Source: a bacterium
GTDB taxonomy: Bacteria; Patescibacteriota; CPR2; UBA1875; JAJYID01
DNA length: 64,000 nucleotides
Direction of reading: 5' to 3'
Assembly (NCBI GenBank): GCA_021790235.1
Contig: JAJYID010000001.1
Coordinates: forward strand, 107,228-171,227
Shown here: one piece after another, positions 21,589 through 47,298 of the stretch
Numbering within the stretch: position 1 is the stretch's first letter
Layout: the number at the start of each line of letters is the position of its first letter
The notes under the pieces: model-generated
What the model saw: the letters and a program-made list of their open reading frames with translations, nothing else
The model's database searches: none
Told to the model about the DNA's origin: nothing
Program-made: the position numbers and the translations under genes

Positions 21589-21796
21589 TTTTACCCTCCG
21601 TTTTTTGGCTTCTCCAACATTGGTACGTCCTCCTTGGGAATAAAATCTTAGCACAACAATATTAGAGAGTCTTTAGGCAAGCGTACAAATAATGATCGGC
21701 TACTTACACATTGAAAAATTTTCTAACTTAGCATATAATCAAATATTCCGTTTGGAATGTTTTCTAAAATCCATTCAACAAAAAGAAGGGATAAAG

Positions 21797-33144: not shown

Positions 33145-33161
33145 AATAACTTCGAAATTCA

Positions 33162-33186
33162 ACAGCCCTTTGTAGGGCTGTTTTTA
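33162..33186 (+). terminator. Intrinsic terminator
   Basis: acagccct-ttgt-agggctgt followed by ttttt. Confidence 0.75.
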
Positions 33187-33273: not shown

Positions 33274-34314
33274 ATGACATTTAGCCTAGACATTTTAAAA
33301 GAAAATACTGAATACTTTGGTTTGGATATTGGGACAACCGCTGTGAAAGCTGTACAGCTAAAGAAATCTTTTGGCAAAGAAGAACTAATCTCTTTTGGAA
33401 GTGCGCCTATTCCGGCAGGTATGAGCCAAAGCGACAGTGATCTAGATAAAAAGAAAATTGCAGAAATTATTAAAAAACTTGTTCATTCTATGCATTTAGT
33501 AACAAAAAATGTGATAGTGTCATTGCCGGGCAGCACCGTTTTTACAACAGTAATCAATATTCCTAAAATGCCAATTGGAGAACTGAAAAAAGCGATTATG
33601 TATCAAGCAGAACAGAATATTCCGCTTAAAATGGATGAGATAAAGATAGATTGGCAAATTATAGGTGATGTACCATCTAAAAATGAGCTGATGGTTATGA
33701 TTATAGCCGCCCCGAAAGCAAAGACACAGAAATTAGTAGATATTACAGAAGCAGCCGGCCTCGAGCTTTGCGCCGTAGAAACTAATTCTATCGCAGCAGC
33801 CAGATCGCTTCAAACAAATGAAAAAAATTATATGATCGTGGATGTCGGCACCTATATCACTGAAATCACAGTTGTGCAAAATGGAGTAGTAACTTTGACT
33901 CGCACAGTGCCGGTAGGCGGACAAGTCATTACAAGAGCGATAGCTCAAGGTTTGAGTATGGAAGAGGAACAGGCAGAGCAGTTTAAAATGAAGTTTGGTG
34001 TTTTGAAAGACAAAATGGAAGGGCAGATTTACAAAACTTCTAAGTCAATCTTAAATACTTTGCAAGAAGAGATTGGAAGGTCGATAAAATATTTTAACAA
34101 TCAGACTCATGAGAATATTCAGCTACTCAAATTGACTGGAGGCGGTTCTAGGACTTTGGGTATTCAGGACTTTCTAGCCGGAGCATTAGGTTTAAATGTT
34201 GTGTACGGAAATCCTTGGGCTCTCGTGGTTCATAAACCTGATGTCAATAATCAATTAGCCGGTAATGCTTTGGATTTTGCTGTAGCTACCGGACTTGCAA
34301 TGAGGGGGTTATAA
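33274..34314 (+). CDS. pilM: Type IV pilus assembly protein PilM (actin-like ATPase fold)
   Basis: GLDIGTTAVKAVQL N-terminus, later LTGGGS, consistent operon context, and SD ggaggg. Confidence 0.85.
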   Translation: MTFSLDILKENTEYFGLDIGTTAVKAVQLKKSFGKEELISFGSAPIPAGMSQSDSDLDKKKIAEIIKKLVHSMHLVTKNVIVSLPGSTVFTTVINIPKMPIGELKKAIMYQAEQNIPLKMDEIKIDWQIIGDVPSKNELMVMIIAAPKAKTQKLVDITEAAGLELCAVETNSIAAARSLQTNEKNYMIVDVGTYITEITVVQNGVVTLTRTVPVGGQVITRAIAQGLSMEEEQAEQFKMKFGVLKDKMEGQIYKTSKSILNTLQEEIGRSIKYFNNQTHENIQLLKLTGGGSRTLGIQDFLAGALGLNVVYGNPWALVVHKPDVNNQLAGNALDFAVATGLAMRGL

Positions 34315-34316
34315 AA

Positions 34317-34892
34317 ATGTCAAAGATTAACTTAGCACCGGATGTACGGCTCGAAAAACTGAAAACGAAAAGAATGAATTTTTATGTTACTATTGGCGCA
34401 ATTGTTGCAGTAGGTATTTTAGTTTTATTTATTTTGATTATTCAAGGTTATAGGTGGTCGCAAAGCTATAGTCTGAGTCAGACAAAGGAAAAAATAGCTA
34501 ATACCAAAGATGAACTCAAAAATTATAAGGATATTGAAGATATGGTGATAAATATTGAACAAGGTACAGCAGCGATAAATTCAATAGAAAAAAACCAGCC
34601 TAGGTGGTCTCGATTTATGCCTGTTTTAGAACAGGTTACCCCGAATGATGTGCGTTTTAGTGAACTTACTCAGAGCGGGAATAAATTCACGGCAAAGGCA
34701 GAGGGTAAATATGTGTATTCAATTGCCAGGCTGATCAACTCTTTGAATAGTTATCAATATAAAAATGATCAAAATGCTCAGACTGGCGTAAAACTTTTTA
34801 AAAATGTCAACGTTGATGGCTATTCCATAAATGATAAGAACCTGGTAGATTTTGACGTAACATTCGAAATAACAAATGGAGTTTTGTGGTGA
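34317..34892 (+). CDS. pilN: PilN-like pilus assembly protein
   Basis: INLAPD start, a single transmembrane segment and a coiled-coil, positioned after pilM. Confidence 0.7.
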   Translation: MSKINLAPDVRLEKLKTKRMNFYVTIGAIVAVGILVLFILIIQGYRWSQSYSLSQTKEKIANTKDELKNYKDIEDMVINIEQGTAAINSIEKNQPRWSRFMPVLEQVTPNDVRFSELTQSGNKFTAKAEGKYVYSIARLINSLNSYQYKNDQNAQTGVKLFKNVNVDGYSINDKNLVDFDVTFEITNGVLW

Positions 34893-35518
34893 ATAAAAAG
34901 TTCGAAAAATATTATTGGATAGCCGGTACTGTAGGCGTGACTTTGGTGGTATTTATTTTGGTTATTGTTTTCATCATTGTTCCTTCTTTTGAAAATATCA
35001 GTCAGGTTAGCAGTGATCTCAAGAATCAGAAAGCGAATTTAAATGTTTTAGAAAAAAAGCTTGCAACTCTTAAAGATCTTAAAGTCAAAGAAGATGAACT
35101 AAAGAAGCAATCTGGTATTGTATACAGAGCTATACCTACTAAACAAGAGGTTGGTGATAGTTTTATTCAACTTGATGGCTTGATTCATGAAGCAGGCGGC
35201 AGCAATCAAAAAGTTGCAGGTTCTAATGGCACTAATAATGCTTCAACATCATCCTCCACCTCATCGAGTTCTGAACAGATATCCTTGCCTCCCGGGGTTA
35301 AGACTCTCGTATATACTACAGATATTACTTTCCCCGCTTATCAAAATTTTAAAGATCTTCTTGTCAATTCGGAAGATGCGCTTAGATTTGTGCATCTTAG
35401 TGATTTTAAAATTACTGACGATCAGGGCTTTAAGGTTAGTTTATCTTATACTGCATATTATAGAGAGGAGAGTGATAATACTAATCAAGCAGGACAAGGG
35501 GAGGGTTTGCTTAAATGA
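34886..35518 (+). CDS. pilO: PilO-like pilus assembly protein
   Basis: A single transmembrane segment, a coiled-coil and a Ser-rich linker, positioned after pilN. Confidence 0.6.
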   Translation: MVNKKFEKYYWIAGTVGVTLVVFILVIVFIIVPSFENISQVSSDLKNQKANLNVLEKKLATLKDLKVKEDELKKQSGIVYRAIPTKQEVGDSFIQLDGLIHEAGGSNQKVAGSNGTNNASTSSSTSSSSEQISLPPGVKTLVYTTDITFPAYQNFKDLLVNSEDALRFVHLSDFKITDDQGFKVSLSYTAYYREESDNTNQAGQGEGLLK

Positions 35519-35754
35519 AAAAAACAGACATTGTCATTTTAGCAGTTTGCAGTCTTGTGATAGCCGGTGCAGTGTTTTTTATTGTAAAAAACTATTTGCC
35601 GAAATCTGCTACTAAATCTGTCCAAACAAAAGAAACTATGAACTTTAATGGTAATATAGACCAAAACACGATCAACCAAATAGAACAAAGGAAAAACTAT
35701 GGTGCTCCTCCTATGGATAACATAGGCAGAGACAATCCTTTTGGAGGACTTTAA
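35515..35754 (+). CDS. Small single-TM protein ending GRDNPFGGL (PilP-like RDPF-type motif, no beta domain)
   Basis: Translationally coupled to pilO (ATGA overlap). It has an N-terminal transmembrane segment and a C-terminal R-D-N-P-F motif. Confidence 0.45.
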   Translation: MKKTDIVILAVCSLVIAGAVFFIVKNYLPKSATKSVQTKETMNFNGNIDQNTINQIEQRKNYGAPPMDNIGRDNPFGGL

Positions 35755-35866
35755 AAAAAGGTTTGGGATTTGGAATATTGAATAGCTAAATAAGGCAATG
35801 GCAATAAGAATTGTAATCATTTGTCTAAATATCAATCTTAAGGTCCGATAGTATTACTCTAAAATT

Positions 35867-37642
35867 ATGGCAGTTGGTAACGATAATAAATTAGAAGATC
35901 TACTAGTCAAGCTGGGTTTGATTACACAAAAACAGCTTGATCTTGTTAAGGTTGAAAGCGCAGAATCAGGAAAACCGATTACAGAGATTCTAGGTAACAT
36001 GCCTGATATCTCAAAAGAAGCTTTGACAAAGGCGATAGCTGTGACTTTGGAGCTTCCTTATGTTGACCTTTCTGCAAAAAAAATTGATAAAAATATTCTT
36101 GATATCATCAATGGAGATCTAGCCGGAAAGTACAAACTTATTCCCTTTGGTAAGGTTGGCGATTTTCTAAATGTAGCTATGGTTGATCCTAACAATATCA
36201 TGGCCATCGAATATATTGAGAAAAAAACAGGTCTTAAGCTGAAGCCCTACCTTGCATCTCAAGAAAGCATTGAAAAAGCTTTAAAACAATATGACGATGA
36301 TTACTCAGTAGAAGTTCAGAATGTGATTGGAACCCTTGAAAAACCGCCAGAAATTAATCTTAAGGAAGATAAGGGAAAGCAAGGAGAAGCTGCCGTTATT
36401 ACCCAAGATGCTCCGATTACCAGAGCTTTAAACACTATCCTAGAATATGCAGCCAAATCCAGGGCTTCCGATGTTCATATTGAGCCAAGAGAGAAATTGA
36501 TAAAAGTTAGATATCGTATAGATGGTATTTTGTATAATACCATGACTCTGCCGAAACATATCCATCCTGCTCTCGTGTCCAGGATTAAGATACTCTCAAA
36601 CCTTAAAATCGATGAACATCGTATTCCTCAGGATGGGCGTTTTCAGCTAAATCAGGATGGACGAGAAATAGATCTTCGTATTTCTATTACCCCGATAGTT
36701 TATGGTGAAAAAGTGGTAATACGTCTTTTAGATAAATCTACAGGTATTATTACGCTTGATAATCTCGGGATAAAGGGACGAGCTTTTAGAATTATAGAGG
36801 AAGGGACTAAAAAACCTCATGGTATGATTTTGGCAACCGGTCCGACCGGGTCCGGTAAGTCCACCTCGCTGTATGCGATTTTGTCAGAGATTAATAAACC
36901 TAGTGTCAATATTATCACAGTTGAAGATCCAGTAGAATATAACATCGACGGTATTAACCAGATCCAGGTAAATAATGCCGTCGGACTGACTTTTTCTTCA
37001 GGTTTACGTTCAATCTTGCGTCAAGACCCCGATGTAATTATGGTTGGAGAGATACGCGACAAGGAAACAGCTGAACTAGCCGTTCAGTCGGCTCTGACGG
37101 GGCATACCGTCCTTTCTACCCTTCATACGAACTCTGCCGCCGGTGCTTTACCTCGTCTCTTAGAGATGGAAATCGAACCATTTTTAATCGCTTCCACCGT
37201 CAATACTGTTATAGCGCAGCGTCTGGTTCGTAAAATATGTGATCATTGCAAAGAAGAATATCAGGCGAGTCCAGCTTTAACTCAGGCAATTAAAAAGTCA
37301 CTAAAAGATGTCTTGCCGTCGAAGAAAGATCCCTCTTCAAAAACTAGAGAACTTGGTTTCGATAAATTACCGAATACTGAAAATGAGGTATTTACACTTT
37401 ATAAAGGTAAAGGTTGTGATCAGTGTAAAAATACAGGTTACTGGGGTAGGACAGGAGTTTATGAGATTTTTAGCATTAATGAAAAGATGGAGAATCTTAT
37501 CACGACAGAAGCTACTTCGAGCGATATTCAAGATCAGGCGATAAAAGATGGAATGATCACTATGCGTCAAGACGGTTTTTTAAAAGCTCTGGCAGGTATT
37601 ACCACATTGGAGGAGGTGGTAAGAACTACGACTGAAGACTAG
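35867..37642 (+). CDS. pilB: Type IV pilus assembly ATPase PilB (GspE family)
   Basis: T2SSE N-domain, Walker A GPTGSGKST, and a tetracysteine motif CDHC...CDQC. Confidence 0.92.
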   Translation: MAVGNDNKLEDLLVKLGLITQKQLDLVKVESAESGKPITEILGNMPDISKEALTKAIAVTLELPYVDLSAKKIDKNILDIINGDLAGKYKLIPFGKVGDFLNVAMVDPNNIMAIEYIEKKTGLKLKPYLASQESIEKALKQYDDDYSVEVQNVIGTLEKPPEINLKEDKGKQGEAAVITQDAPITRALNTILEYAAKSRASDVHIEPREKLIKVRYRIDGILYNTMTLPKHIHPALVSRIKILSNLKIDEHRIPQDGRFQLNQDGREIDLRISITPIVYGEKVVIRLLDKSTGIITLDNLGIKGRAFRIIEEGTKKPHGMILATGPTGSGKSTSLYAILSEINKPSVNIITVEDPVEYNIDGINQIQVNNAVGLTFSSGLRSILRQDPDVIMVGEIRDKETAELAVQSALTGHTVLSTLHTNSAAGALPRLLEMEIEPFLIASTVNTVIAQRLVRKICDHCKEEYQASPALTQAIKKSLKDVLPSKKDPSSKTRELGFDKLPNTENEVFTLYKGKGCDQCKNTGYWGRTGVYEIFSINEKMENLITTEATSSDIQDQAIKDGMITMRQDGFLKALAGITTLEEVVRTTTED

Positions 37643-37723
37643 AAATATTACTTTTTAATTATAAGTCTTTAAATTTTAAACTGATAGTATTAGAATAAGA
37701 ATTATAGAAGGAGGGCTGGGAAG

Positions 37724-38797
37724 ATGCCGGAAACAACTAAACTAAAAATTGAAAATTTTCTAGAAGAGGTTATAAAACGTGATGCCAGTGATCTTCATTT
37801 AACGGTTGGTGTACCTCCTATGCTCCGAGTAGATGGTTCGCTGCAACCTATTGAAGATGCCAAAGGGCTTACTGACAAAGATGTTAAAGAATTGACTTAT
37901 TCCATTTTAGATGATGTTCAAAAAGATATTTTAGAAAGGGATAAAGAAGTAGACTTTTCGTTCACATATGGGGATCTCGCCAGATTTAGGGCAAATGCTT
38001 ATCACCAAAAAGGTAACGTCGGTTTAGCACTTCGTCTCATTCCGGTTAATATCAGAAGTCTATCACAGCTAGGTATGCCTCAGATAGTTGAAAAATTTAC
38101 AGATTTTTCTCGCGGCTTGGTACTTGTAACCGGTCCGACCGGGTCCGGTAAATCCACTACCTTAGCAGCCATGATTGATAAAATCAACTCAGAACGCGCA
38201 TGCCATATCATTACAGTTGAGGATCCGATCGAATATACTCATTCGCATAAAAAATCTCTAGTTGAACAGCGAGAAGTGCATTATGATACTCGTTCATTTG
38301 CGGCTGCACTCCGCAGTGTTCTCCGTGAAGATCCGGATGTTGTTTTAATCGGTGAAATGAGAGATTTGGAGACTATTGCCGCGGCTATTACTATTGCCGA
38401 AACAGGTCATCTGGTCTTGGCTACTTTGCATACAAACAGCGCTGCCCAGTCAGTTGACAGGATTATTGACGTCTTTCCACCCCATCAGCAACAACAGATC
38501 AGAGTGCAGCTTTCTAATATTTTACAAAGTATAGTTTCTCAAAGATTAATTCCTGCTATCGGAGGTGGAAGATTGGCGGCTGCGGAGATTTTGGTAGTGA
38601 ATGCTGCGGTTAGAAATATCATTAGAGAACAGAAGACACATCAGATAGAAGCAGTGATTCAGACCGGTTCTTCAGAAGGTATGCAATCTATGGATAGAAC
38701 TCTGGCAAACTTGATTAAAACTGGACGTATTACTCTGGAAGAGGCAAAGGGCTATGCAATCGATATCAAAGAGCTTGAACGTCTCTTACATGGATAA
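37724..38797 (+). CDS. pilT: Type IV pilus retraction ATPase PilT
   Basis: ASDLHLTVG, GPTGSGKSTT, and HLVLATLHTNSA. Confidence 0.92.
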   Translation: MPETTKLKIENFLEEVIKRDASDLHLTVGVPPMLRVDGSLQPIEDAKGLTDKDVKELTYSILDDVQKDILERDKEVDFSFTYGDLARFRANAYHQKGNVGLALRLIPVNIRSLSQLGMPQIVEKFTDFSRGLVLVTGPTGSGKSTTLAAMIDKINSERACHIITVEDPIEYTHSHKKSLVEQREVHYDTRSFAAALRSVLREDPDVVLIGEMRDLETIAAAITIAETGHLVLATLHTNSAAQSVDRIIDVFPPHQQQQIRVQLSNILQSIVSQRLIPAIGGGRLAAAEILVVNAAVRNIIREQKTHQIEAVIQTGSSEGMQSMDRTLANLIKTGRITLEEAKGYAIDIKELERLLHG

Positions 38798-38842
38798 AAA
38801 TTAGCCGTAAAAACAATCCCTACAAACACTTAACGGAGTAAA

Positions 38843-40051
38843 ATGAAAGAATTTACATATAAAGCGAGAAATAAAGACGGGACGGCCACTCAAGGCATAG
38901 TAGAAGCGGAAACCGAGGTGGCAGCTTCAAATCTTCTGATTTCCAAAAACATTTTTCCGGTTGATATAAAAGAAGGTACCAAAACCTCCTTTGAAATACC
39001 TTTTTTAAAAAAGGTATCCAGAAAAGATAAAGTCTTCTTTCTGAGACAGTTGGCAACCATGACGGGTGCCGGTCTGCCTATAGCTCAAGCCCTTTCAACA
39101 CTATTGGCTCAAACCTCAAAGAAAAATGTTAAGAAAATGATTGAGCAAATGAGCCGTGACATTGAAGCCGGCGGTACGCTTTCTGCTGCTTTCGCCGCTT
39201 TTCCTGATGTGTTTAATAAAACCGATACCAATATGATAGCTTCGGGTGAAGCTAGTGGTAAAGTAGATGAGGTACTCTTGCACATGGCAAATCAGACAGA
39301 AAAGAGCTATCAAACTTTGAAAAAAATTAGAACCGTTTTTATTTACCCGGCCTTCCTAGCAGTCGTTGTGTCGGGTGTGGTGGGAATCTTAATAACATTT
39401 GTTTTGCCGCAAATGAAAAATCTCTACTCAGGGTTTGGAGCCAATCTGCCTTTGCCGACTAGAATTTTAATCGGGACTAGCGACTTTCTTGCCAAATATT
39501 TCATATTAGTGGTTATACTTGTCATTGCTATTTATATCTCACTTAGGATATATATTAAGACAAATGAAACAGGCAAGTATTTCTGGCACAGACTAAAGAC
39601 AAGTATACCGATAATCTCTAGCTTTATCCGTCTTTCTTATCTTTCTATTATTACGAGAACCTTGGCCAGCTTGGTGGCTTCAGGCGTACCTATTCTTGAT
39701 TCGCTGGATATAGTGTCAGAGGCTATGCAAAATGTCATATATCGCGATAGCTTAAAAACGGTTCGAGACAAGGTCAAACAAGGTAAGTCTTTATCTGCAG
39801 CTTTTAAGGAAGATGAGGTATTCCCAATATTGGTTTCCCAAATGATGGGAGTTGGTGAGCAAACGGGAGAGCTTGATAATATGCTTTCAAATATGGCAGA
39901 GTATTATGACAACGAGCTAGATAGCATGACCAAAAATCTGCAGTCTCTTCTGGAACCGGTTATGATAGTGATAATGGGAGGGATAGTCGGGACTATTATT
40001 ATTTGTATCTTGCTTCCGGTATATAGTCTTCAGAATTTTGTAGTCCACTAA
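38843..40051 (+). CDS. pilC: Type IV pilus platform protein PilC (GspF family)
   Basis: Two T2SSF repeats and three transmembrane regions. Confidence 0.9.
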   Translation: MKEFTYKARNKDGTATQGIVEAETEVAASNLLISKNIFPVDIKEGTKTSFEIPFLKKVSRKDKVFFLRQLATMTGAGLPIAQALSTLLAQTSKKNVKKMIEQMSRDIEAGGTLSAAFAAFPDVFNKTDTNMIASGEASGKVDEVLLHMANQTEKSYQTLKKIRTVFIYPAFLAVVVSGVVGILITFVLPQMKNLYSGFGANLPLPTRILIGTSDFLAKYFILVVILVIAIYISLRIYIKTNETGKYFWHRLKTSIPIISSFIRLSYLSIITRTLASLVASGVPILDSLDIVSEAMQNVIYRDSLKTVRDKVKQGKSLSAAFKEDEVFPILVSQMMGVGEQTGELDNMLSNMAEYYDNELDSMTKNLQSLLEPVMIVIMGGIVGTIIICILLPVYSLQNFVVH

Positions 40052-40150
40052 TTTGTTCATGCGATAGGCATAAATGAAATAATATAGTTGACACATCATA
40101 AGGACATTGGTTCAATATCAACATAAAAGAAAAAAGAAAGGAGGTGGAAT

Positions 40151-40591
40151 ATGAGAAATCTAAGAAAAAAGTTTACTCTGGGAGAAGCGAAGGGTTTTAC
40201 ACTTATTGAGTTAGTCGTAGTTATGGCTATTATCGCTGTTTTAGCGGTGCTGGTTATAGGTGCTATCACCATAGCCCGTCAAACTGCAATGGAGACTGCA
40301 GACAGATCAAACGTCAGAACATTGCAAACCTGTCTCGAAGCAGATTACACGAAATTTAAGGCTTATTGTGGTGCGACGGGTCAAACTGCATGTCCTACTT
40401 TGCCTACTACTGGTAGTGTAATGTTTACTGCTATGGCTGCTGATATAGGAAGTTGTAAACCAGCTACTGGGACTTCAGGTGATGGTGCCTCTGATGGAGT
40501 AACAGTGACTGCCTGGTCTAAGAATAGTTATACTATTCAAGCACTATCTCATGATAACTCAACTACTATAGATAGTCCTGTTTCTCCTTAG
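40151..40591 (+). CDS. Type IV pilin (paralog 1)
   Basis: Class III signal KG/FTLIELVVVMAIIAVLA. SD aaaggagg. Confidence 0.85.
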   Translation: MRNLRKKFTLGEAKGFTLIELVVVMAIIAVLAVLVIGAITIARQTAMETADRSNVRTLQTCLEADYTKFKAYCGATGQTACPTLPTTGSVMFTAMAADIGSCKPATGTSGDGASDGVTVTAWSKNSYTIQALSHDNSTTIDSPVSP

Positions 40592-40669
40592 ATAATTTGA
40601 TCGGGATATCTTTCATAACTAGCCATGGCGAGACGGCTCCTCATGGCTGTTATGGGAAATATTAAACAA

Positions 40670-41113
40670 ATGGAAGAGGGAGTGAAAAAGCTAAAAAAAA
40701 ATCAAGGTTTTACACTCATTGAGTTAGTCGTAGTTATGGCTATTATCGCTGTTTTAGCGGTGCTGGTTATAGGTGCTATCACGGTTGCTAGAAACACTGC
40801 TGCAGAAACTACAAATCGATCGAATGCTCGGACATTTCAAGCAGGTTTGGAAAAATATTTTTCTAATAATAAAAGTTATCCTGCCTACGTTGTTACCGGT
40901 GGTTTAGCCTCATTTGATACTTTGTACAACGATAATCTTAGAGATTTAGGCATTACGCATGCGGATTATCCCAGTGGCTGTGACACTACTGGTCAAGCAC
41001 ACGGTGGAGGCCAATATAGTTATAATTCTTCTACTGGTCAGTATACTCTTACGGTTTGGAACTATGATTGTACAAAAGTTTTATCCGGATCAAGCAATCA
41101 GTTTACCAACTAA
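40670..41113 (+). CDS. Type IV pilin (paralog 2)
   Basis: QG/FTLIELVVVMAIIAVLA. The ORF is open from 40625, but the start is chosen nearer the signal (MEEGVKKLKKNQG). Confidence 0.8.
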   Translation: MEEGVKKLKKNQGFTLIELVVVMAIIAVLAVLVIGAITVARNTAAETTNRSNARTFQAGLEKYFSNNKSYPAYVVTGGLASFDTLYNDNLRDLGITHADYPSGCDTTGQAHGGGQYSYNSSTGQYTLTVWNYDCTKVLSGSSNQFTN

Positions 41114-41127
41114 GATGATTAACAGTA

Positions 41128-41706
41128 ATGTTTTTGTATAAGAGAAAAAATATTTTCGGAAAATTAGAAGGTTTTACACTTATTGAGTTAGTCGTAGTTA
41201 TGGCTATTATTGCTCTTCTTGCCGCTTTAATCATAGGAGCCATCGCTATAACGCGCCAACAAGCCGATGTTACGAGGCTACGATCTGATGCTCATAATAT
41301 TCAGACAGCTTTAGAGGGATACTTTGCAAAGAACAGACATTTCCCTCCTGATTATCGAGTAGATGCCTACTCGCTTTATGCAGATACTTCTGCTTATTAT
41401 ACTGATGGCAAAACTTATGCAAACCAAGATGGAGCGCATCCTTTAAGTACTATGGGGGCATCATCTTGGCCCACTCCCCCGGCAAACAACGGCAGCAAGG
41501 GGCTGATATGTTACTCAGCCGGTCTCAACGCACAGGATTATTGGTTTTGGATCTTGACTCCGGGCGAGGTGCAAGCCGGTAAAGTGTGTATTGCCCCGAG
41601 TTGCACGAACTCTACTTGTGGATTTATAGCTGCAGATCCTGGCAGTAAGATTCATTGTCCGAATGGCACGACCTCGAGCGGTTGTTCATCTCAGTATTGG
41701 TATTAG
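41128..41706 (+). CDS. Type IV pilin (paralog 3, larger C-terminal domain with several Cys)
   Basis: EG/FTLIELVVVMAIIALLA. Confidence 0.8.
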   Translation: MFLYKRKNIFGKLEGFTLIELVVVMAIIALLAALIIGAIAITRQQADVTRLRSDAHNIQTALEGYFAKNRHFPPDYRVDAYSLYADTSAYYTDGKTYANQDGAHPLSTMGASSWPTPPANNGSKGLICYSAGLNAQDYWFWILTPGEVQAGKVCIAPSCTNSTCGFIAADPGSKIHCPNGTTSSGCSSQYWY

Positions 41707-41770
41707 AAAATTTGTTCTCTGTGTAAGACTGGAGGATAAGGCTGGGGACGGTTCTCTTTTTAAAGCAGAT

Positions 41771-41799
41771 TTGACGGAAACTTTCAAATTTTCTATAAT
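41771..41799 (+). promoter_or_regulatory. Sigma70-like promoter (TTGACG-17-TATAAT) of the transposase gene, 6 nt before the ATG (leaderless)
   Basis: ttgacg at 41771-41776, a 17-nt spacer, tataat at 41794-41799, and the ATG at 41806. Confidence 0.7.
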
Positions 41800-41805
41800 T
41801 TGTTT

Positions 41806-42489
41806 ATGCCCAGACAAGCTAGAATATTGCCACCGAACGGTTTTTATCATATCGTCTGCCGCGGAAACAACAAACAGAATATATTTCGGGATGATTCAGA
41901 TAAGGACAAATATCTTGAGTTGGCTTTAAGATACAAGGGAGAGCATCCCATGTCTCTATTCCATTATTGTTTAATGACTAATCATGTTCATTTGCTTCTT
42001 GAAACGAATGAACAAACTGATCTTTCAAACTTTATGAAAAGGCTTAATCTTGCCTATTTTCATCATTTTAAAAATAAATATGGTTATGTTGGCCATTTCT
42101 GGCAGGACAGATTCAAAAGCTTCTTAATCGAGCGGGATAACTATCTTTTGGTTTGTGGAAAGTATATCGAGCTGAACCCGGTAAGGGCTAAAATGGTGGC
42201 GAGACCTGAAGACTTTGAATACTCGAGTTATGGGTTTTATACTGATAACAAGAAGAGTGATATTTTAGAACACAACCCTCTGTTTTTTGAACTGAGCTCC
42301 AAGTCCAAGGATTGTTCTAGTCTGTACCGTGACTTTGTTGTGCCTCAAGAAGAGATAGAACAGAGGTTTAAGGGTCCCTTCTGGGGTAGTGAGAAATTTG
42401 TTACTAGAATGAGAAAGAGGCTTGACTATAAAAAGGCCGCTGTTCAAGCAGGTAGAAAGGTTAATTTTCGGAAAATCAAAGCGCAATAG
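41806..42489 (+). CDS. REP-associated tyrosine transposase-like / IS200-family Y1 (HUH) transposase
   Basis: FYHIVCRGNN, HUH motif TNHVHLLL, and the catalytic Tyr region YIELNPVRAKM. Confidence 0.8.
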   Translation: MPRQARILPPNGFYHIVCRGNNKQNIFRDDSDKDKYLELALRYKGEHPMSLFHYCLMTNHVHLLLETNEQTDLSNFMKRLNLAYFHHFKNKYGYVGHFWQDRFKSFLIERDNYLLVCGKYIELNPVRAKMVARPEDFEYSSYGFYTDNKKSDILEHNPLFFELSSKSKDCSSLYRDFVVPQEEIEQRFKGPFWGSEKFVTRMRKRLDYKKAAVQAGRKVNFRKIKAQ

Positions 42490-42555
42490 AGAACCGTCCC
42501 CTAAGTGGGGGATAATGTTCTTTTGTATTACTAGGTTGCTGAGTATAATATATTT

Positions 42556-43362
42556 ATGTTTATTTTCTTGATTTTGTTTTTTGTTTTTGGTCTGATCATT
42601 GGCAGTTTTTTGAATGTTCTGATATATAGATTAGAAAACAAAAAACGTAAAACTCTGTGGGGCAGGTCTTTTTGTCCTCATTGTGAGAAGCGAATTGAAT
42701 GGTATGATAATATTCCGGTTGTGTCCTTTCTGTTTTTGGGCGGCAAGTGCCGGCATTGCAAAAAGAAAATTTCCATTCAATACCCGCTGGTGGAGCTGAC
42801 AACAGGATTTTTGTTCGCACTGCTTTTTGTAATCCCGAACGGGGCAATGGCGGAGTTGGGGAATCCCTTTGCTTACATTAATTTAATCTTCTGGTTTTTC
42901 TTTGCCTCGTGTTTGATGGTTGTTTTTGTTTACGACTTAAAACATCAAATCATTCCGGACCAGGTAATTTATACTGCACTTATTACCGGCTTCCTCTATG
43001 TGTCAATGCAATTTGCTTTACTAGGAGACTTTAAATATTTAGCTGATCATCTGTCATCTGCATTGATTGCCGGAGGTTTTTTCTATATTTTAGCAGCCAT
43101 ATCAAACGGCAAATGGATGGGAGGAGGTGATATTAAACTGGTATCCTTCATGGGCTTAGTACTTGGATGGCAGGGTACTGTTATTTCTCTATATGTTGCT
43201 TTTGTTTTAGGTGCTATCATGGGCGTGATTTTGCTGATATCAAAGAAAAAAAAATTTGGTTCAAAGATCCCCTTTGGCCCTTTTCTAATCATAGGAAATT
43301 TTATAGGCCTTTTTTTTGGGGAGCAACTCATTAACTTTTATGTTAAAATGTTTTTAAGTTAA
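42556..43362 (+). CDS. pilD: Prepilin peptidase (A24 family) PilD
   Basis: Zinc-binding CPHC...CRHC, multiple transmembrane segments, and the catalytic region GGGDIKL. Confidence 0.9.
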   Translation: MFIFLILFFVFGLIIGSFLNVLIYRLENKKRKTLWGRSFCPHCEKRIEWYDNIPVVSFLFLGGKCRHCKKKISIQYPLVELTTGFLFALLFVIPNGAMAELGNPFAYINLIFWFFFASCLMVVFVYDLKHQIIPDQVIYTALITGFLYVSMQFALLGDFKYLADHLSSALIAGGFFYILAAISNGKWMGGGDIKLVSFMGLVLGWQGTVISLYVAFVLGAIMGVILLISKKKKFGSKIPFGPFLIIGNFIGLFFGEQLINFYVKMFLS

Positions 43363-43374
43363 CTGGATATTCTT

Positions 43375-44058
43375 ATGATGTGGAGGGTTAAAAATAATAA
43401 AGGATTTACACTGGTTGAGCTCATAGTGGTTATGTCAATAACCGGTATTTTGCTTGCGCTTATTTATGGCGGATATTCCAGTACCAGAAAAGGCCAGTAT
43501 GTTCAGTATATGGCGAATCTTACCCAGACTAATATCCGAAGCTCCTTTATAGATATTATCTCTACAAAAGTGGAAACAGCAGGTAACTGTAATGGTTTAT
43601 CGCCTGTGATAAAAGTTGTGGCAATAAAGTTAGGTTCATCTTCCACACCTATCACTGAGGTTCCTATTTGTAATGATAATAGTGGCGTACTGCAGGATCC
43701 GACTACGAATATTGAAACTATTGATCCGTCAGAGAGCTTAAATTTTCAGGAGAATTTAAGTATGGACTTTTGTACTCCTTATGCGACCAACTACTCTTGC
43801 ACTAATCCGACTAAAACAGGTTATCTTTATCTAATTTTTACAAGTCCATACGGAAAATATTACAGTTACTATAGTGGTTCAGATCAAATAACAGATTTAT
43901 GGACCTATCAAATTAGTAACTGGCAGCATAACGCAGATATGATTTATACGCCATCTAGTGACCCAAGTATAGGTTATATAACTCTTCATTTAACTGATGA
44001 TACCGGTAATACGTCAGAACTTAATATTACAGGTGTTGGTAATGTCGAAAAGCCATGA
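43375..44058 (+). CDS. Minor pilin / pseudopilin
   Basis: KG/FTLVELIVVMSITGILLA prepilin signal. Confidence 0.75.
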   Translation: MMWRVKNNKGFTLVELIVVMSITGILLALIYGGYSSTRKGQYVQYMANLTQTNIRSSFIDIISTKVETAGNCNGLSPVIKVVAIKLGSSSTPITEVPICNDNSGVLQDPTTNIETIDPSESLNFQENLSMDFCTPYATNYSCTNPTKTGYLYLIFTSPYGKYYSYYSGSDQITDLWTYQISNWQHNADMIYTPSSDPSIGYITLHLTDDTGNTSELNITGVGNVEKP

Positions 44059-44630
44059 GGATTTTAGATATGAGTTTCAAAATGATTAATAAAAAAGGAC
44101 AGAGTCTCGTTGAGGTCGTGGTAGCATGCGCTATTTTAGGTATTACTATGGCAGCGATTATGAGTATGGTAATCTCTTCAAAAAATCTTTTATATCAGTC
44201 CGAAGCACAGACTGAGGCTACAACTCTGGCTCAGGAAGGCATAGGTATAGTCCAGCATCAGCGTGATATCGGGTGCAGTTTTTCTAATATCACTACAAAT
44301 GGTGTGTTAAATGGTGCTAACGGTGGTTCAGACTTTGTGGTAAAAGGAGATCTGCTAAACGAGACCGGTGAGGATTTGGTTGCGGGTTCTATAACTTCTG
44401 CCACAAATATTGATGGTAATGGCAAAACCACTCAATTTGTCGGTTTTGAAAGGGGAATTGAAATCCAAGAATTAAGTGCCCTTGCGAGTAATCAAGTTGT
44501 GACAGGCTCGGGTTTTCAAGCGTCGGGTATCAATTATGACATCATAGATGATTATTACTACATTACTGTTACTGTGAATGGGCCGAATAATGCGAAATCG
44601 GAAATATCAACTATTATTTCAAAAAAGTAA
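44055..44630 (+). CDS. Minor pilin (PilV-like)
   Basis: KG/QSLVEVVVACAILGI prepilin-like signal. Confidence 0.6.
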   Translation: MRILDMSFKMINKKGQSLVEVVVACAILGITMAAIMSMVISSKNLLYQSEAQTEATTLAQEGIGIVQHQRDIGCSFSNITTNGVLNGANGGSDFVVKGDLLNETGEDLVAGSITSATNIDGNGKTTQFVGFERGIEIQELSALASNQVVTGSGFQASGINYDIIDDYYYITVTVNGPNNAKSEISTIISKK

Positions 44631-44633
44631 GAA

Positions 44634-45260
44634 ATGAAAAAGATTTTAAAAAATAAAAAAGGATTTACTTTGGTTGAACTTTTGGTAAGCATGGGGATTT
44701 TCGCTGTTGTTATAACAATGTGCGTCAGTTTCTTTATAGCAATGCAAAAGATGCAATCTGTCTATCGCGATCAAGCAAATTTGCAGCAGGAAGGAAGAAT
44801 TACTTCAAATATTTTTTCTATGCAGGTGAGTGATGCCGCAGTAGTTTATATTAATGATAAAAACAGTGATGGTAGTATTTGCAGTGATGCTGATGTGAAT
44901 AATAGGACTCAAAATAATGATTTTGAAGATTATATAGCGATAAAGAAAAATGTCAGTGACACAGAAGCGCTTGTCTTTGCCTGCCACGAGGACAATAGTA
45001 GTAATACACGATATTTAATGATGGGAACGCTCTCAGTTCCCGTCGGAACAGATCTCTCCCCGTTCACTATTAGTTCAGGTAATTTCGGGCAGCTTTCTTG
45101 GCTGTCTTCCAACCAAGTTACTATAGATGATTTTCAAGTGGCCAATAGTTCGACGACATATCCAAGAACTTTAAAATTCAATCTCAAAGTTAAAGGGTCT
45201 AGCGGGATTGCGCCGGAAATGCAGTTTCCCGGTTATCTGGTAATGAATAATGAACAATAA
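44634..45260 (+). CDS. Minor pilin (PilW-like)
   Basis: KG/FTLVELLVSMGIFAVV prepilin signal. Confidence 0.7.
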   Translation: MKKILKNKKGFTLVELLVSMGIFAVVITMCVSFFIAMQKMQSVYRDQANLQQEGRITSNIFSMQVSDAAVVYINDKNSDGSICSDADVNNRTQNNDFEDYIAIKKNVSDTEALVFACHEDNSSNTRYLMMGTLSVPVGTDLSPFTISSGNFGQLSWLSSNQVTIDDFQVANSSTTYPRTLKFNLKVKGSSGIAPEMQFPGYLVMNNEQ

Positions 45261-46206
45261 AAGGATCATAATGGAAAAGATACAAAACAAAAAAGGTAAT
45301 GCTCTCATCTGGACTGTGATGTTTATGGCGCTTTTTTTTCTCATAGCTAGCACAGTGGCAGTGATTACACTTGCAGACATCAGACAGGCTACTAATATAG
45401 ACAGCTCTACTGAGGCTTATTTAGTGGCTGAGGCAGGGATTGAGAGAGCTCGAAATTATGTATTAGCAGATCAATCCACAATCGGTTCCGGTTATATAGA
45501 TAGCAATACATATAAATTTGAGGTTGTGAAAGCAGTTGTGGGCAGCCAGTCTCCTTTTCTTACAGATCAAAATCGCATATGTGACAATACTACAGGTTCA
45601 ACAGATAAATATTGCTATTACAGTCAAGCCGTTGTAGGTAATGTTAAAAGAAAAATTATTGGTGAGCATAATAATATACCTCTAAGTCAAGGACAGTCCA
45701 CTAATTTTGATAGTAGCCTTATTCTCAATAATGATATAGGTATCCCAAGCATCGATTTTCAAAACTTAGGTTCGAGTTATCAAACATTTACTTATGTAAC
45801 AAATCTTGCAGATAATGATAGCGGTAATTCATATAATTTTGGTTTAGCTTCATCATCTACAAATGGGGTGGACATAGTTGTAGGTCCTGATCCGAACAAT
45901 ACTGGTAAACTGGAATTTTATTTAGCTGATATGCACTACAGTCATCTCGGCTCTAATATGATTAATAATATCACAGCCGGCAGTCTCCAAGTTACACTGG
46001 TTTACAGGAAAAGCGGTATAGCAACTCTTAAATTACAAAGTGATACTTCGTGTTTGGGTATCATCTCAGCGAGTGTGGCGCCAAACCTGAATCCGTACGA
46101 CGCCTTCTTTGTTCAGGGAACATATAATGCATCTTTTCCTTATGCTATATGGTTAAATGGAAAACAAGATATGCAGTTTAATACTGCTTTTTTGAGAGTA
46201 GAGTAA
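45250..46206 (+). CDS. PilX-like pilus tip/assembly protein
   Basis: KGNALIWTVMFMALFFLIASTVAVITLADIRQA is a PilX_N-type hydrophobic N-terminus. It is the last gene of the minor pilin set. Confidence 0.55.
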   Translation: MNNKRIIMEKIQNKKGNALIWTVMFMALFFLIASTVAVITLADIRQATNIDSSTEAYLVAEAGIERARNYVLADQSTIGSGYIDSNTYKFEVVKAVVGSQSPFLTDQNRICDNTTGSTDKYCYYSQAVVGNVKRKIIGEHNNIPLSQGQSTNFDSSLILNNDIGIPSIDFQNLGSSYQTFTYVTNLADNDSGNSYNFGLASSSTNGVDIVVGPDPNNTGKLEFYLADMHYSHLGSNMINNITAGSLQVTLVYRKSGIATLKLQSDTSCLGIISASVAPNLNPYDAFFVQGTYNASFPYAIWLNGKQDMQFNTAFLRVE

Positions 46207-46224: not shown

Positions 46225-47169
46225 TCAGTTTTTCTTTCCGTGGAATTTTTTATGGATATCTTTTAGATGCTGGTTTGTAATATGGGTATAGATCTGGGTA
46301 GTTGTTATAGAAGAATGGCCGAGCATGGCCTGAACGCTGCGGATATCGGCACCGTTTATCAAAAGGTCGGTAGCAAAAGAATGCCTTAAAGAGTGAGGCG
46401 TCACTTCCTTTGTGATACCGGCTAGCCGAGCATATTTTGAAACAATCCTTTGAATACTTCTTGGAGTTAAGCGCATATATTCACCATCATCCAGGCCGTC
46501 TTTTGCGCCTGAAAAATGAATAAAAAGTGGTTTGGCATTATCGGTTCTTTTGGCAAGGTAGTTTTTTATTTTTCTTATGGCCGGATCCGAAAGAAAAACT
46601 ATCCTATCCTTGTCACCTTTACCGCGAACATTAAACTCTCCCCTTTCCAGGTTAATTTGTTCGCGGTTTAAGCCGGTGAGTTCACTTACTCTGAGCCCCG
46701 TAGAAAAAAGCGTTTCTAAAATCGCCGCATCCCTCAGAGTGGCTGCTTCTTTTTTTGAAGGGAATTTTTCTGGTGCCTTAAGGAGAGACTCGACCTCTTC
46801 AATACCTAAAAAATTTATTTGTTTTCGCTTCATTTCTCCGAGTTCTACTTTTTCTGCGGCCAAAGATTTGATGTCTCTTTTAGCCAGATATTTTAGGAAG
46901 GCACGAAGAGCAATAATATGATAAGTTTGGGTGATTTTAGCCAGATTGTCTCCGAGACCGGTAGTGAATCGGTTGAGATAGAGCCGATATTTTCTGACCA
47001 GATCACTTGTAATTTGTTCAGGTTTAAGTTCGCGGCTGCGCCCTTTTTCGGCAAAGTCAAGAAAACGTCCCAGATAGTGTTCGTAGTTTCTGATAGTCAG
47101 TTCTGAATGATTTTTTTCTATTTCTGAATACTCGAGGAAATCGCGGATAAGATCATTTACGCTAGCCAT
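46225..47169 (-). CDS. xerC: Tyrosine recombinase XerC/XerD family
   Basis: Catalytic motifs HSLRHSFAT and LGHSSITTTQIYTH. ATG 47169 is preferred over GTG 47187 because tacaat lies 6 nt upstream of it. Confidence 0.85.
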   Translation of the reverse strand: MASVNDLIRDFLEYSEIEKNHSELTIRNYEHYLGRFLDFAEKGRSRELKPEQITSDLVRKYRLYLNRFTTGLGDNLAKITQTYHIIALRAFLKYLAKRDIKSLAAEKVELGEMKRKQINFLGIEEVESLLKAPEKFPSKKEAATLRDAAILETLFSTGLRVSELTGLNREQINLERGEFNVRGKGDKDRIVFLSDPAIRKIKNYLAKRTDNAKPLFIHFSGAKDGLDDGEYMRLTPRSIQRIVSKYARLAGITKEVTPHSLRHSFATDLLINGADIRSVQAMLGHSSITTTQIYTHITNQHLKDIHKKFHGKKN

Positions 47170-47298
47170 ATTGGTATTGTACGACACAAAATTTTAAATT
47201 CAAAATGCAAACATTTTTTATTTCTGAGACCGGATTTTTTGTTAAGTATGTATTGCTAACATCTTGAACATTTTCAAAGATTCAAACATAATTTAATA

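What the first reader, a model, noticed from the sequence alone, without database searches (positions are those of the whole stretch)
33274..46206. Complete secretin-less type IV pilus machine in one 13-kb locus (pilMNO + mini-PilP, pilB, pilT, pilC, 3 pilins, pilD, 4 minor pilins)
All inner-membrane and cytoplasmic components, both extension (PilB) and retraction (PilT) ATPases, the peptidase, and seven prepilin-signal proteins are contiguous and co-oriented. No PilQ-type secretin, TsaP or PilF-like gene is present in the window. That fits a monoderm or CPR-type envelope. Retractile type IV pili in small-genome episymbionts have been implicated in host attachment, motility and DNA uptake (established knowledge at the level of the group). 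The two large secreted proteins just upstream, and xerC-comEC just downstream, make this the most likely interaction or DNA-uptake island in the window. Whether the upstream proteins are pilus-associated adhesins is inference only.
Basis: partly seen in the sequence, partly recalled or inferred. Interest (0 to 1): 0.6.

Follow-up and report, generated by a model that had tools for sequence, protein, structure and literature searches.

The report
Secretin-less type IV pilus locus, CPR bacterium
This 13-kb stretch encodes a complete retractable type IV pilus machine without an outer-membrane pore, an arrangement already described in the ultra-small Patescibacteria (CPR), so it is ordinary for that group; the one new point is an unnamed ~80-residue membrane protein that always sits between pilO and pilB.

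Summary
Window 33274-46206 (+) encodes PilM, PilN, PilO, an 79-aa membrane protein, PilB, PilT, PilC, three paralogous pilins, PilD and four minor pilins. All are supported by family models, motifs, a profile match (PilN) or a predicted fold (PilO). No secretin, TsaP or PilF was found among 61 window ORFs scanned.

Closest relatives (PilB 74-88% identical) are Patescibacteria MAGs with the same gene order. The same single-locus, pilQ-less architecture is already published for CPR genomes and for the Saccharibacteria T4P-1 loci, so this is a new member of a known kind.

- A RAYT-like Y1 transposase gene with 17-nt inverted repeats (41744-42501) sits between pilin 3 and pilD. Relatives lack it.
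- "Mini-PilP" has no detectable homology to PilP. It belongs to an unannotated family of ~80-aa proteins. PilO lies directly upstream in 28 of 28 loci and PilB directly downstream in 29 of 30.
- The 560-aa upstream repeat protein is strain-specific. The 795-aa one is a SurA-like membrane-anchored protein conserved upstream of pilM.
- comEC is split into two collinear ORFs.
- The locus is syntenic core chromosome, not an island.

The parts
33274..34314 (+). pilM: actin-like cytoplasmic alignment protein
   Evidence: PF11104 at 1.5e-50. TIGR01175 at 195.9 bits, above the cutoff of 133.
34317..34892 (+). pilN: bitopic alignment protein with an N-terminal INLAP motif that would bind PilM
   Evidence: No Pfam hit. 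The orthologue profile matches M. xanthus PilN 3jc8_Na, residues 1-144, E=0.004. INLAP is at residue 4. It is 58-73% identical in L001-L004.
34886..35518 (+). pilO: bitopic alignment protein
   Evidence: No Pfam hit. The AF2 model shows a TM helix, a coiled coil and two alpha-beta-beta motifs. Foldseek ranks 1-4 are PilO: 3jc8_Oa at 2.9e-4, 2rjz (chains A and B) and 5uvr.
35515..35754 (+). 79-aa single-pass membrane protein (p79), the fourth gene of the pilMNO unit. It belongs to an unannotated family with the C-terminal motif DYG..(M/L)DNIG(R/K)xNPF.
   Evidence: 66 representative clusters match, almost all 79-90 aa. No Pfam or PDB relative was found. PilO is directly upstream in 28/28 loci and PilB directly downstream in 29/30.
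35867..37642 (+). pilB: extension ATPase with an MshEN-type N-terminal domain
   Evidence: T2SSE at 3.6e-134 plus MshEN at 1.5e-14. TIGR02538 is the best NCBIfam hit at 586.6 bits, below its equivalog cutoff of 675. Walker A/B, Asp box, His box and two CxxC are present.
37724..38797 (+). pilT: retraction ATPase
   Evidence: TIGR01420 at 478.3 bits, above the cutoff of 319. The AVRNIIRE motif is at residue 295.
38843..40051 (+). pilC: polytopic platform protein
   Evidence: PF00482 T2SSF at 2.2e-62, two stretches. GspF and PilC NCBIfam models hit at 1e-107 and 2.9e-91.
40151..40591 (+). Pilin paralogue 1. It is the smallest (131 aa mature) and has the highest Gly/Ala/Ser/Thr fraction, so it is the best major-pilin candidate.
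   Evidence: N_methyl at 4.1e-6. Cleavage site KG|FTLIE with Glu5, 4 Cys, GAST 0.44.
40625..41113 (+). Pilin paralogue 2
   Evidence: N_methyl at 6.4e-9. QG|FTLIE; the N-terminal 63 aa are 68% identical to pilin 1 and the C-terminal domain is unrelated.
41128..41706 (+). Pilin paralogue 3
   Evidence: N_methyl at 7e-5. EG|FTLIE, 6 Cys.
41744..42501 (+). Inserted RAYT-like Y1 (HUH) transposase element. The gene is at 41800-42489 and is bounded by 17-nt inverted repeats (GGGGACGGTTCTCTTTT). It is not a pilus part.
   Evidence: PF01797 at 2.9e-18. NCBIfam REP_Tyr_transpos at 75 bits, cutoff 80. Inverted repeats at 41744-41760 and 42485-42501. A promoter-like site matching 11 of 12 positions lies at 41771-41799, and a hairpin at 42496-42513. 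Absent from L001, L003 and L005.
42556..43362 (+). pilD: prepilin peptidase / N-methylase
   Evidence: A24_N_bact at 3.9e-34 plus Peptidase_A24 at 1.8e-17. Two CxxC, IPD and GGGDIK motifs.
43375..44058 (+). Minor pilin 1 (GspH/FimU position)
   Evidence: N_methyl at 2e-9. KG|FTLVE. Weak GspH hit at 8.2e-5.
44055..44630 (+). Minor pilin 2 (GspI/PilV position)
   Evidence: N_methyl at 4.8e-6. KG|QSLVE. Weak XpsI and PilV hits.
44634..45260 (+). Minor pilin 3 (GspJ/PilW position)
   Evidence: N_methyl at 5e-9. KG|FTLVE. Weak HpsC, ComGF and GspJ hits.
45250..46206 (+). Minor pilin 4. It is PilX/GspK-like, lacks Glu5 and has a variable C-terminal half, so it is the likely tip or adhesive subunit.
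   Evidence: PilX_N at 2e-4 and GspK at 0.008, both below cutoff. G|NALIW. Only the N-terminal ~140 aa are conserved in L001 and L003. The L001 orthologue carries a lectin module.
30757..33144 (+). Membrane-anchored SurA_N-like protein with a Cys-rich C-terminal half. It is conserved upstream of pilM but is a separate transcription unit. A link to the pilus is inference only.
   Evidence: SurA_N_3 at 2e-15. Full-length orthologue in L004, split in L001. Hits upstream of pilM in L087-L089, L091 and L107. Terminator-like hairpin at 33161-33182.
46225..47187 (-). Xer-type tyrosine recombinase, convergent with the pilus genes
   Evidence: Phage_integrase at 1.7e-42. XerC and XerD models at ~242 bits, below cutoff; XerA model at 225.8, above its cutoff of 220. 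Same position in L001 and L005.
47299..49591 (+). comEC as two collinear ORFs: 47299-48738 (DUF4131 + Competence channel) and 48725-49591 (MBL nuclease domain)
   Evidence: Pfam results. TIGR00361 positions 85-420 and 430-663 respectively. The 14-nt overlap lies next to an A8T5 run.

Best explanation
This is the core chromosomal type IVa-like pilus locus of a Patescibacteria (CPR) bacterium.

Proposed mechanism:
- PilD cleaves and methylates seven prepilins.
- Four minor pilins in GspH-I-J-K order prime the fibre on the PilC platform and end up at its tip. The last is a Glu5-less PilX/GspK-like subunit with a variable C-terminal module.
- PilB polymerises one or more of three paralogous major-type pilins.
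- PilT depolymerises them, so the fibre retracts.
- PilM (cytoplasm), PilN and PilO (bitopic) form the alignment ring. A conserved ~80-aa bitopic protein encoded as the fourth gene most likely joins that ring on the outer face of the membrane.
- No secretin is used, because the envelope has no outer membrane.

By analogy with the experimentally studied Saccharibacteria T4P-1 loci, the pilus probably serves twitching and host or surface attachment. Together with the adjacent ComEC it may also serve DNA uptake.

Shown here: gene content, motifs, folds and conserved synteny. Inferred: assembly order, retraction, the role of the 79-aa protein and the biological function.
For: - Family models, cutoffs and catalytic motifs support PilM, PilB, PilT, PilC, PilD and six canonical prepilins.
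- PilN is supported by a profile-to-PDB match plus the INLAP motif.
- PilO is supported by its predicted fold.
- None of 61 window ORFs hits a secretin, LysM/TsaP or PilF family.
- The closest PilB relatives (74-88% identical) are Patescibacteria/Saccharibacteria MAGs with the same order: YchF(-), SurA-like, pilMNO-p79-pilBTC-pilins-pilD-four minor pilins, xerC(-), comEC.
- The order pilM-N-O-p79-B-T-C-pilin-D recurs in 21 metagenome contigs with PilB down to ~60% identity.
- Literature: a complete Microgenomates genome has a single-locus T4P with PilA, minor pilins, PilD, PilB, PilT, PilC and PilM and no pilQ (PMC7143001).
- Literature: TM7x locus one has PilC1, PilB1, PilT, PilM1N1O1, PilD and 5 pilins. 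Its pilins are essential and it is linked to twitching (PMC11623550).
- Literature: the S. epibionticum T4P genes are essential and comEC is required for transformation (PMC10633639).
Against: - Expression and piliation are untested.
- The genome outside the 64-kb window was not searched for a secretin.
- PilB and PilC score almost equally well against T2SS GspE/GspF models, and PilB is below the PilB equivalog cutoff.
- A RAYT element with its own promoter-like site and a hairpin lies between the pilins and pilD plus the minor pilins. It could be polar on them.
- comEC is in two ORFs, which may be a frameshift. This weakens the DNA-uptake link for this strain.
Confidence: 0.85

Rival explanations
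1. The locus is a dedicated competence (Com-type) pseudopilus. Its only role is to bring DNA to the adjacent ComEC channel. It is not a motility or adhesion pilus.
For: comEC lies 1 kb downstream, and the minor-pilins, xerC, comEC order is conserved in L001 and L005. Pilins give weak hits to the ComGC, ComGE and ComGF models. ComEC-dependent natural transformation exists in Saccharibacteria (PMC10633639).
Against: ComG systems lack PilT and PilMNO, and both are present here with strong scores. PilB scores 260.9 against the ComGA cutoff of 300, and far better against PilB and GspE. In S. epibionticum the T4P genes are essential while comEC is dispensable, so the pilus has roles beyond competence (PMC10633639). 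comEC here is split. In L004 the pilD/minor-pilin/comEC part is not adjacent.
Confidence: 0.07
2. The locus is a type II secretion system-like pseudopilus that exports proteins, such as the large upstream secreted proteins, rather than building an external fibre.
For: PilB and PilC score about as well against GspE (578.7 bits) and GspF (360.9 bits) as against the PilB and PilC models. The four minor pilins follow the GspH-I-J-K order. Two secreted or membrane proteins lie directly upstream.
Against: There is no GspD secretin, GspC, GspL or GspM. PilM, PilN and PilO are present instead. A PilT retraction ATPase passes its family cutoff. Both upstream proteins carry Sec-type N-termini, and one is absent from all relatives. 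A terminator-like hairpin separates them from pilM. Cryo-ET and genetics in Saccharibacteria show real external pili from equivalent loci (PMC11623550).
Confidence: 0.04
3. The locus is decaying in this strain. The RAYT insertion and the split comEC mark a machine that is no longer fully functional.
For: The RAYT-like element lies between pilin 3 and pilD, has a hairpin after its stop, and is absent from relatives. comEC is in two ORFs beside a homopolymer run.
Against: All 15 pilus ORFs are intact and full length compared with their orthologues. All catalytic motifs are intact. The element is intergenic and disrupts no ORF. The two comEC halves are complete and collinear and lose only about 10 model positions, which fits a native split or a sequencing error.
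Confidence: 0.04

Closest known systems
Saccharibacteria T4P-1 locus (Nanosynbacter lyticus TM7x locus one, TM7x_00415-00475; Southlakia epibionticum T4P1, SEML1_0104-0116)
   Same: A single locus with PilM, PilN, PilO, PilB, PilT, PilC, PilD and about five pilins. These include a large PilX-type pilin with a non-canonical signal peptide and an extra C-terminal domain. No secretin is present. The genes are essential and linked to twitching (PMC11623550, PMC10633639).
   Different: The window has seven pilin-like genes, three of them tandem major-type paralogues, plus a RAYT insertion and an adjacent xerC-comEC. A Saccharibacteria MAG in my set (L017) shares only 43% PilB identity and has a 145-aa protein, not ~80 aa, before pilB. 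Direct orthology to TM7x was not tested.
Single-locus, pilQ-less T4P of other CPR genomes (e.g. Microgenomates Ch65, PMC7143001)
   Same: PilA, minor pilins, PilD, PilB, PilT, PilC and PilM are in one locus. pilQ was not found, which that paper read as evidence for a non-Gram-negative envelope.
   Different: That description lists no PilN, PilO or fourth small protein. Here all three are identified.
Diderm T4aP machine (P. aeruginosa / M. xanthus PilMNOPQ + PilBTCD)
   Same: The same cytoplasmic and inner-membrane parts and the same pilM-N-O-X gene order. The PilN and PilO matches are to the M. xanthus and P. aeruginosa structures.
   Different: There is no PilQ secretin, TsaP or PilF. The fourth gene is a 79-aa TM-anchored protein with no PilP beta-domain, no lipobox and no detectable PilP homology.
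Monoderm T4P (Streptococcus sanguinis, Clostridium spp.)
   Same: A secretin-less T4aP-type machine with PilB, PilT, PilC, PilD, PilMNO and several pilins, some of them modular (my own knowledge, not tested here).
   Different: No sequence comparison was made. The ~80-aa family was not detected in the Clostridia loci of my set, but those loci showed no pilM near pilB, so they are uninformative.

Membership tests
Type IVa pilus machinery (TFF superfamily) | Prepilins with a class III signal peptide (Gly-1, hydrophobic +1, Glu+5) and an N_methyl motif | tested here: met
   Six proteins have G|(F/Q)(T/S)L(I/V)E and PF07963/TIGR02532 hits. A seventh (45250-46206) has Gly-1 but Trp at +5.
Type IVa pilus machinery (TFF superfamily) | Prepilin peptidase PilD with two catalytic Asp and an N-terminal Cys-rich domain | tested here: met
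   PF06750 at 3.9e-34 plus PF01478 at 1.8e-17. CPHC, CRHC, IPD and GGGDIK motifs.
Type IVa pilus machinery (TFF superfamily) | Extension ATPase PilB and platform protein PilC | tested here: met
   T2SSE at 3.6e-134; TIGR02538 is the best hit but is below its equivalog cutoff (586.6 against 675). T2SSF occurs twice. GspE and GspF score similarly.
Type IVa pilus machinery (TFF superfamily) | Retraction ATPase PilT with an AIRNLIRE-type motif | tested here: met
   TIGR01420 at 478.3 bits, above the cutoff of 319. AVRNIIRE.
Type IVa pilus machinery (TFF superfamily) | Alignment subcomplex PilM-PilN-PilO | tested here: met
   PilM is above the TIGR01175 cutoff. PilN is supported by a profile-to-PDB match at E=0.004 plus INLAP. 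PilO is supported by its fold.
Type IVa pilus machinery (TFF superfamily) | Outer-membrane secretin PilQ (diderm form) | tested here: not met
   No Secretin family hit in 61 window ORFs. The rest of the genome could not be searched. Absence is expected for the monoderm/CPR form.
   No PilP hit was found for the protein, for 62 family members, or for family profiles searched against PDB chains, which include the 3jc8 pilus-machine model that supplied the PilN and PilO matches.
   Cys12 lies inside the hydrophobic helix (LAVC, with Val at -1). It is not conserved across the family.
   Only about 55 residues follow the TM helix. Family members are 79-90 aa.
   The position is met in 28/28 loci. 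The segment length resembles PilP residues 18-76, which bind PilNO (PMC5805733). Binding itself was not tested.
ComG competence pilus | ComGA-GG plus ComC, with no PilT and no PilMNO | tested here: not met
   PilT and PilMNO are present. The ComGA model scores 260.9, below its cutoff of 300 and far below the PilB model.
Type II secretion system | GspD secretin, GspC and GspL/GspM | tested here: not met
   None was found. PilO gives only a faint GspM hit (0.0057), and the fold search ranks PilO first.
REP-associated tyrosine transposase (RAYT), for ORF 41800-42489 | Y1/HUH transposase domain flanked by inverted REP-like repeats | tested here: inconclusive
   PF01797 at 2.9e-18. NF047646 at 75 bits, just below its cutoff of 80. 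17-nt inverted repeats flank the gene, but there are no further copies in the 64-kb window.

The most novel reading that the evidence does not exclude
The ~80-aa protein family encoded between pilO and pilB is an undescribed fourth subunit of the alignment complex of secretin-less CPR pili. It has a TM anchor and a conserved extracytoplasmic DYG..DNIG(R/K)xNPF tail. Functionally it would be what remains of PilP once the secretin-binding domain is not needed: a membrane-tethered peptide that clamps the PilN-PilO heterodimer. Alternatively it could link the heterodimer to the cell wall or S-layer.
Probability: 0.35. Interest if true: 0.5.

Novelty: new member of a known kind. Interest (0 to 1): 0.3.

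Why it matters
Type IV pili are the best-supported host-contact and DNA-uptake organelles of CPR episymbionts. This locus adds one more well-resolved example but does not change that picture. Two by-products may be useful.

First, it gives a clean definition of a conserved ~80-aa gene that current family libraries do not name and that CPR pilus papers in the searched library do not mention. It is a concrete candidate for how the alignment complex is completed without PilP and PilQ.

Second, the tip-type minor pilin swaps its C-terminal module between close relatives. One relative carries a lectin domain. This points to where host or substrate specificity may reside.

Tried and rejected
- An AF2 model of minor pilin 4 from a 5-sequence alignment gave pLDDT 48. 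That is too poor for a fold search, so its C-terminal module stays uncharacterised.
- A profile of the C-terminal half of the 795-aa upstream protein found nothing in the PDB.
- The 560-aa repeat protein has no Pfam or NCBIfam hit. TRF found no tandem array, although repeat finder shows a 278-nt duplication at 92% identity.
- The word-indexed homologue search found only 3 relatives of the 79-aa protein. The exhaustive representative search was needed.
It worked with 13 closer sequences.
- I tried to obtain a verified PilP from a diderm locus, to compare N-terminal motifs. L031 turned out to have another small TM protein after pilO and no pilQ. From memory, PilP N-termini carry an R-x-P-F motif. 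This was not verified and is not used as evidence.
- The "island" idea is rejected: there is no compositional break and synteny with housekeeping flanks is conserved.

Full report
**Observation.** ORF listing and translation show 16 co-oriented ORFs between 33274 and 46206.

Pfam and NCBIfam give strong assignments:
- PilM: PF11104 at 1.5e-50; TIGR01175 at 195.9 bits, cutoff 133.
- PilB: T2SSE at 3.6e-134 plus MshEN; the best NCBIfam hit is TIGR02538.
- PilT: TIGR01420 at 478 bits, cutoff 319.
- PilC: T2SSF in two stretches.
- PilD: A24_N_bact plus Peptidase_A24.
- Six prepilins carry N_methyl.

Motif checks are all positive. Both ATPases have Walker A/B and Asp and His boxes. PilB has two CxxC pairs, PilT has AVRNIIRE, PilD has GGGDIK, IPD and two CxxC, and PilN has INLAP at residue 4. 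All six canonical prepilins in the 64-kb window lie in this locus.

**The three genes without family hits.**
- PilN: a profile of the window protein and four orthologues matches M. xanthus PilN (3jc8_Na) from residue 1 to 144, E=0.004, as the top PDB hit.
- PilO: a 15-sequence alignment gave an AF2 model (pLDDT 68) with a TM helix, a long coiled coil and two alpha-beta-beta motifs. Foldseek ranks four PilO chains first: 3jc8_Oa at 2.9e-4, 2rjz chains A and B, and 5uvr. GspL and GspM periplasmic domains rank lower.
- The 79-aa ORF is conserved in L001-L004 at 46-57% identity, with an invariant C-terminal YG.PPMD.IGR.NPF.

**The 79-aa protein is not PilP by any test I could run.** There is no Pfam, NCBIfam or PDB match for the protein, for 62 relatives, or for family profiles. 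Its Cys is inside the TM helix and is not conserved family-wide. Only about 55 residues follow the helix.

It does define a family. An exhaustive profile search found 66 representative clusters at E<=1e-3, nearly all 79-90 aa and matched end to end.

Genomic context was examined for five distant members and 21 metagenome contigs found through the motif. Together with the window and L001-L004 this makes 31 loci. PilO is directly upstream in 28 of the 28 that have upstream sequence. PilB is directly downstream in 29 of 30. Some contigs are near-duplicates, so the independent count is a little lower.

A Saccharibacteria MAG with only 43% PilB identity (L017) has a 145-aa TM protein ending in EIGRDNPFEDY at the same position. 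PilP is known to bind PilN-PilO through its unstructured residues ~18-76 and PilQ through its beta-domain (PMC5805733). A TM-tethered ~55-residue tail is therefore a reasonable functional analogue of the first half of PilP. That is inference, not homology.

**Pilins.** The three tandem pilins share 52-68% identity over the N-terminal ~65 residues and diverge completely afterwards. Pilin 1 is the smallest and has the highest Gly/Ala/Ser/Thr fraction (0.44), so it is the best major-pilin candidate.

The four downstream pilins give weak hits, mostly driven by the N-terminal helix, in the order GspH, GspI/PilV, GspJ, GspK/PilX. The last lacks Glu5 (G|NALIW). Relatives conserve only its N-terminal ~140 residues. 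The L001 orthologue is 484 aa and carries a C-terminal lectin module (putidacin-L1 family, 3.2e-20). This parallels PilX1 and PilX2 of TM7x, which are large, have non-canonical signal peptides and carry accessory domains (PMC11623550). My structure prediction for this protein failed (pLDDT 48).

**No secretin in the window.** Sixty-one ORFs, essentially every ORF of at least 120 aa, were scanned. The rest of the window is housekeeping, including PNPase, RNase J, FtsK, RodZ, PlsX, YchF, EF-P, SSB, S6, RuvABC, RNase Y and TsaE. There is no Secretin, LysM/TsaP or TPR/PilF protein. The rest of the genome could not be searched.

**Origin and conservation.** The PilB scan of species-representative genomes returned five close relatives at 74-88% identity. 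They are labelled Patescibacteria group, Candidatus Saccharibacteria or unclassified MAGs. The next hits are at about 45% or less.

Their gene order matches the window: YchF(-), SurA-like, pilM-N-O-p79-B-T-C, one to three pilins, pilD, four minor pilins, xerC(-), comEC. In L004 the part from pilD onward is elsewhere. The window's own proteins are on record on a 172.6-kb contig. Composition across the locus is unremarkable. The locus is therefore core chromosome and not an island.

1. ORF 41800-42489 is a Y1/HUH transposase of the RAYT type (PF01797 at 2.9e-18; NF047646 at 75 bits, cutoff 80). It is bracketed by 17-nt inverted repeats at 41744-41760 and 42485-42501. A promoter-like site matching 11 of 12 positions lies just upstream, and a hairpin overlaps the right repeat. 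Relatives lack it. It disrupts no ORF but separates the pilins from pilD and the minor pilins.
2. comEC is two collinear ORFs that cover TIGR00361 positions 85-420 and 430-663. They overlap by 14 nt beside an A8T5 run. I could not decide between a frameshift and a native split.

**Upstream proteins.**
- The 560-aa protein has a Sec-type signal and four ~112-aa repeats, two of them 92% identical at the DNA level. Its GC is higher (0.45) and it has no family hit. It has no counterpart in any related locus. It is strain-specific and not a conserved pilus partner.
- The 795-aa protein has a TM anchor and a SurA_N-like chaperone domain (2e-15), followed by a Cys-rich half with no known relatives. 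It has a full-length orthologue in L004, a split one in L001, and hits upstream of pilM in five further contigs. A terminator-like hairpin at 33161-33182 separates it from pilM. A role as a pilin or envelope-protein chaperone is conceivable but untested.

**Comparison with what is known.** A single-locus T4P with PilA, minor pilins, PilD, PilB, PilT, PilC and PilM and no pilQ has been reported for a complete Microgenomates genome. That paper used it to argue for a non-Gram-negative envelope (PMC7143001).

TM7x locus one has the same parts list. Its pilins are essential and it is linked to twitching (PMC11623550). In S. epibionticum the T4P genes are essential, and comEC is needed for transformation but dispensable for growth (PMC10633639).

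The window's locus is thus a new member of a known kind. ComG-type and T2SS readings fail on PilT, PilMNO and the missing GspC/D/L/M. No paper in the searchable library mentions PilP together with CPR or Patescibacteria, and the TM7x paper does not discuss a small fourth protein. The ~80-aa family is therefore the only element that may be undescribed.

**Verdict.** Interest is 0.3. The modest upside lies in the conserved pilO-pilB small protein and in the modular tip pilin.

Noticed in passing
window 41744-42501: RAYT-like Y1 transposase gene bounded by 17-nt inverted repeats, with its own promoter-like site and a hairpin after its stop. It is inserted between pilin 3 and pilD and is absent from relatives L001, L003 and L005.
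   Followed up: partly
window 47299-49591: comEC is split into a channel ORF and an MBL-domain ORF. They are collinear on the ComEC/Rec2 model, overlap by 14 nt and sit next to an A8T5 run. Frameshift, sequencing error or native split is unresolved.
   Followed up: partly
window 28935-30617: 560-aa secreted protein made of four ~112-aa repeats with the motif YYWTWYDQQS...NWVLVANPS. Two repeats are 92% identical at the DNA level (29655-29932 and 29991-30268). It has the highest GC in the window (0.45), no family hit, and is absent from all related loci.
   Followed up: partly
window 30757-33144; L004 5195-7465; L001 4136-6771: Membrane-anchored SurA_N-like chaperone domain fused to a Cys-rich C-terminal half (motifs GW.CDP and CGG..NHGF) with no PDB or Pfam relative. 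It is conserved immediately upstream of pilM in this clade and is split into two ORFs in L001.
   Followed up: partly
L001 18356-19810: The orthologue of minor pilin 4 is 484 aa and ends in a lectin domain (putidacin L1 family, 3.2e-20). The tip-type pilin exchanges its C-terminal module between close relatives.
   Followed up: partly
window 46225-47187 (-): The Xer-type recombinase scores below the bacterial XerC and XerD equivalog cutoffs but above the archaeal XerA/integron-integrase cutoff (225.8 against 220).
   Followed up: no
L031 16761-19443: A MAG labelled Bdellovibrionales has pilM, pilN and a pilO-like gene, then a 106-aa TM protein ending in VDPIKDIFAQ. No pilQ lies in the next 2 kb. 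Either the bin label is doubtful, or this is another secretin-less locus with a small fourth gene.
   Followed up: no
L001 11815-12204: A 129-aa ORF that by eye resembles a four-helix-bundle protein (no family scan was run) is inserted between pilB and pilT in the closest relative. It is absent from the window.
   Followed up: no
window 5831-6781 and 21692-22771: FabK-like nitronate monooxygenase (NMO) and PlsX are present. These are lipid-synthesis functions that many CPR genomes are reported to lack (my own knowledge). They may help place the lineage.
   Followed up: no
window 56087-57355: 422-aa protein with two lamin-tail domains (LTD, 8.8e-35), followed by a 378-aa ORF with no family hit. 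They may be further surface proteins and are unrelated to the pilus locus.
   Followed up: no
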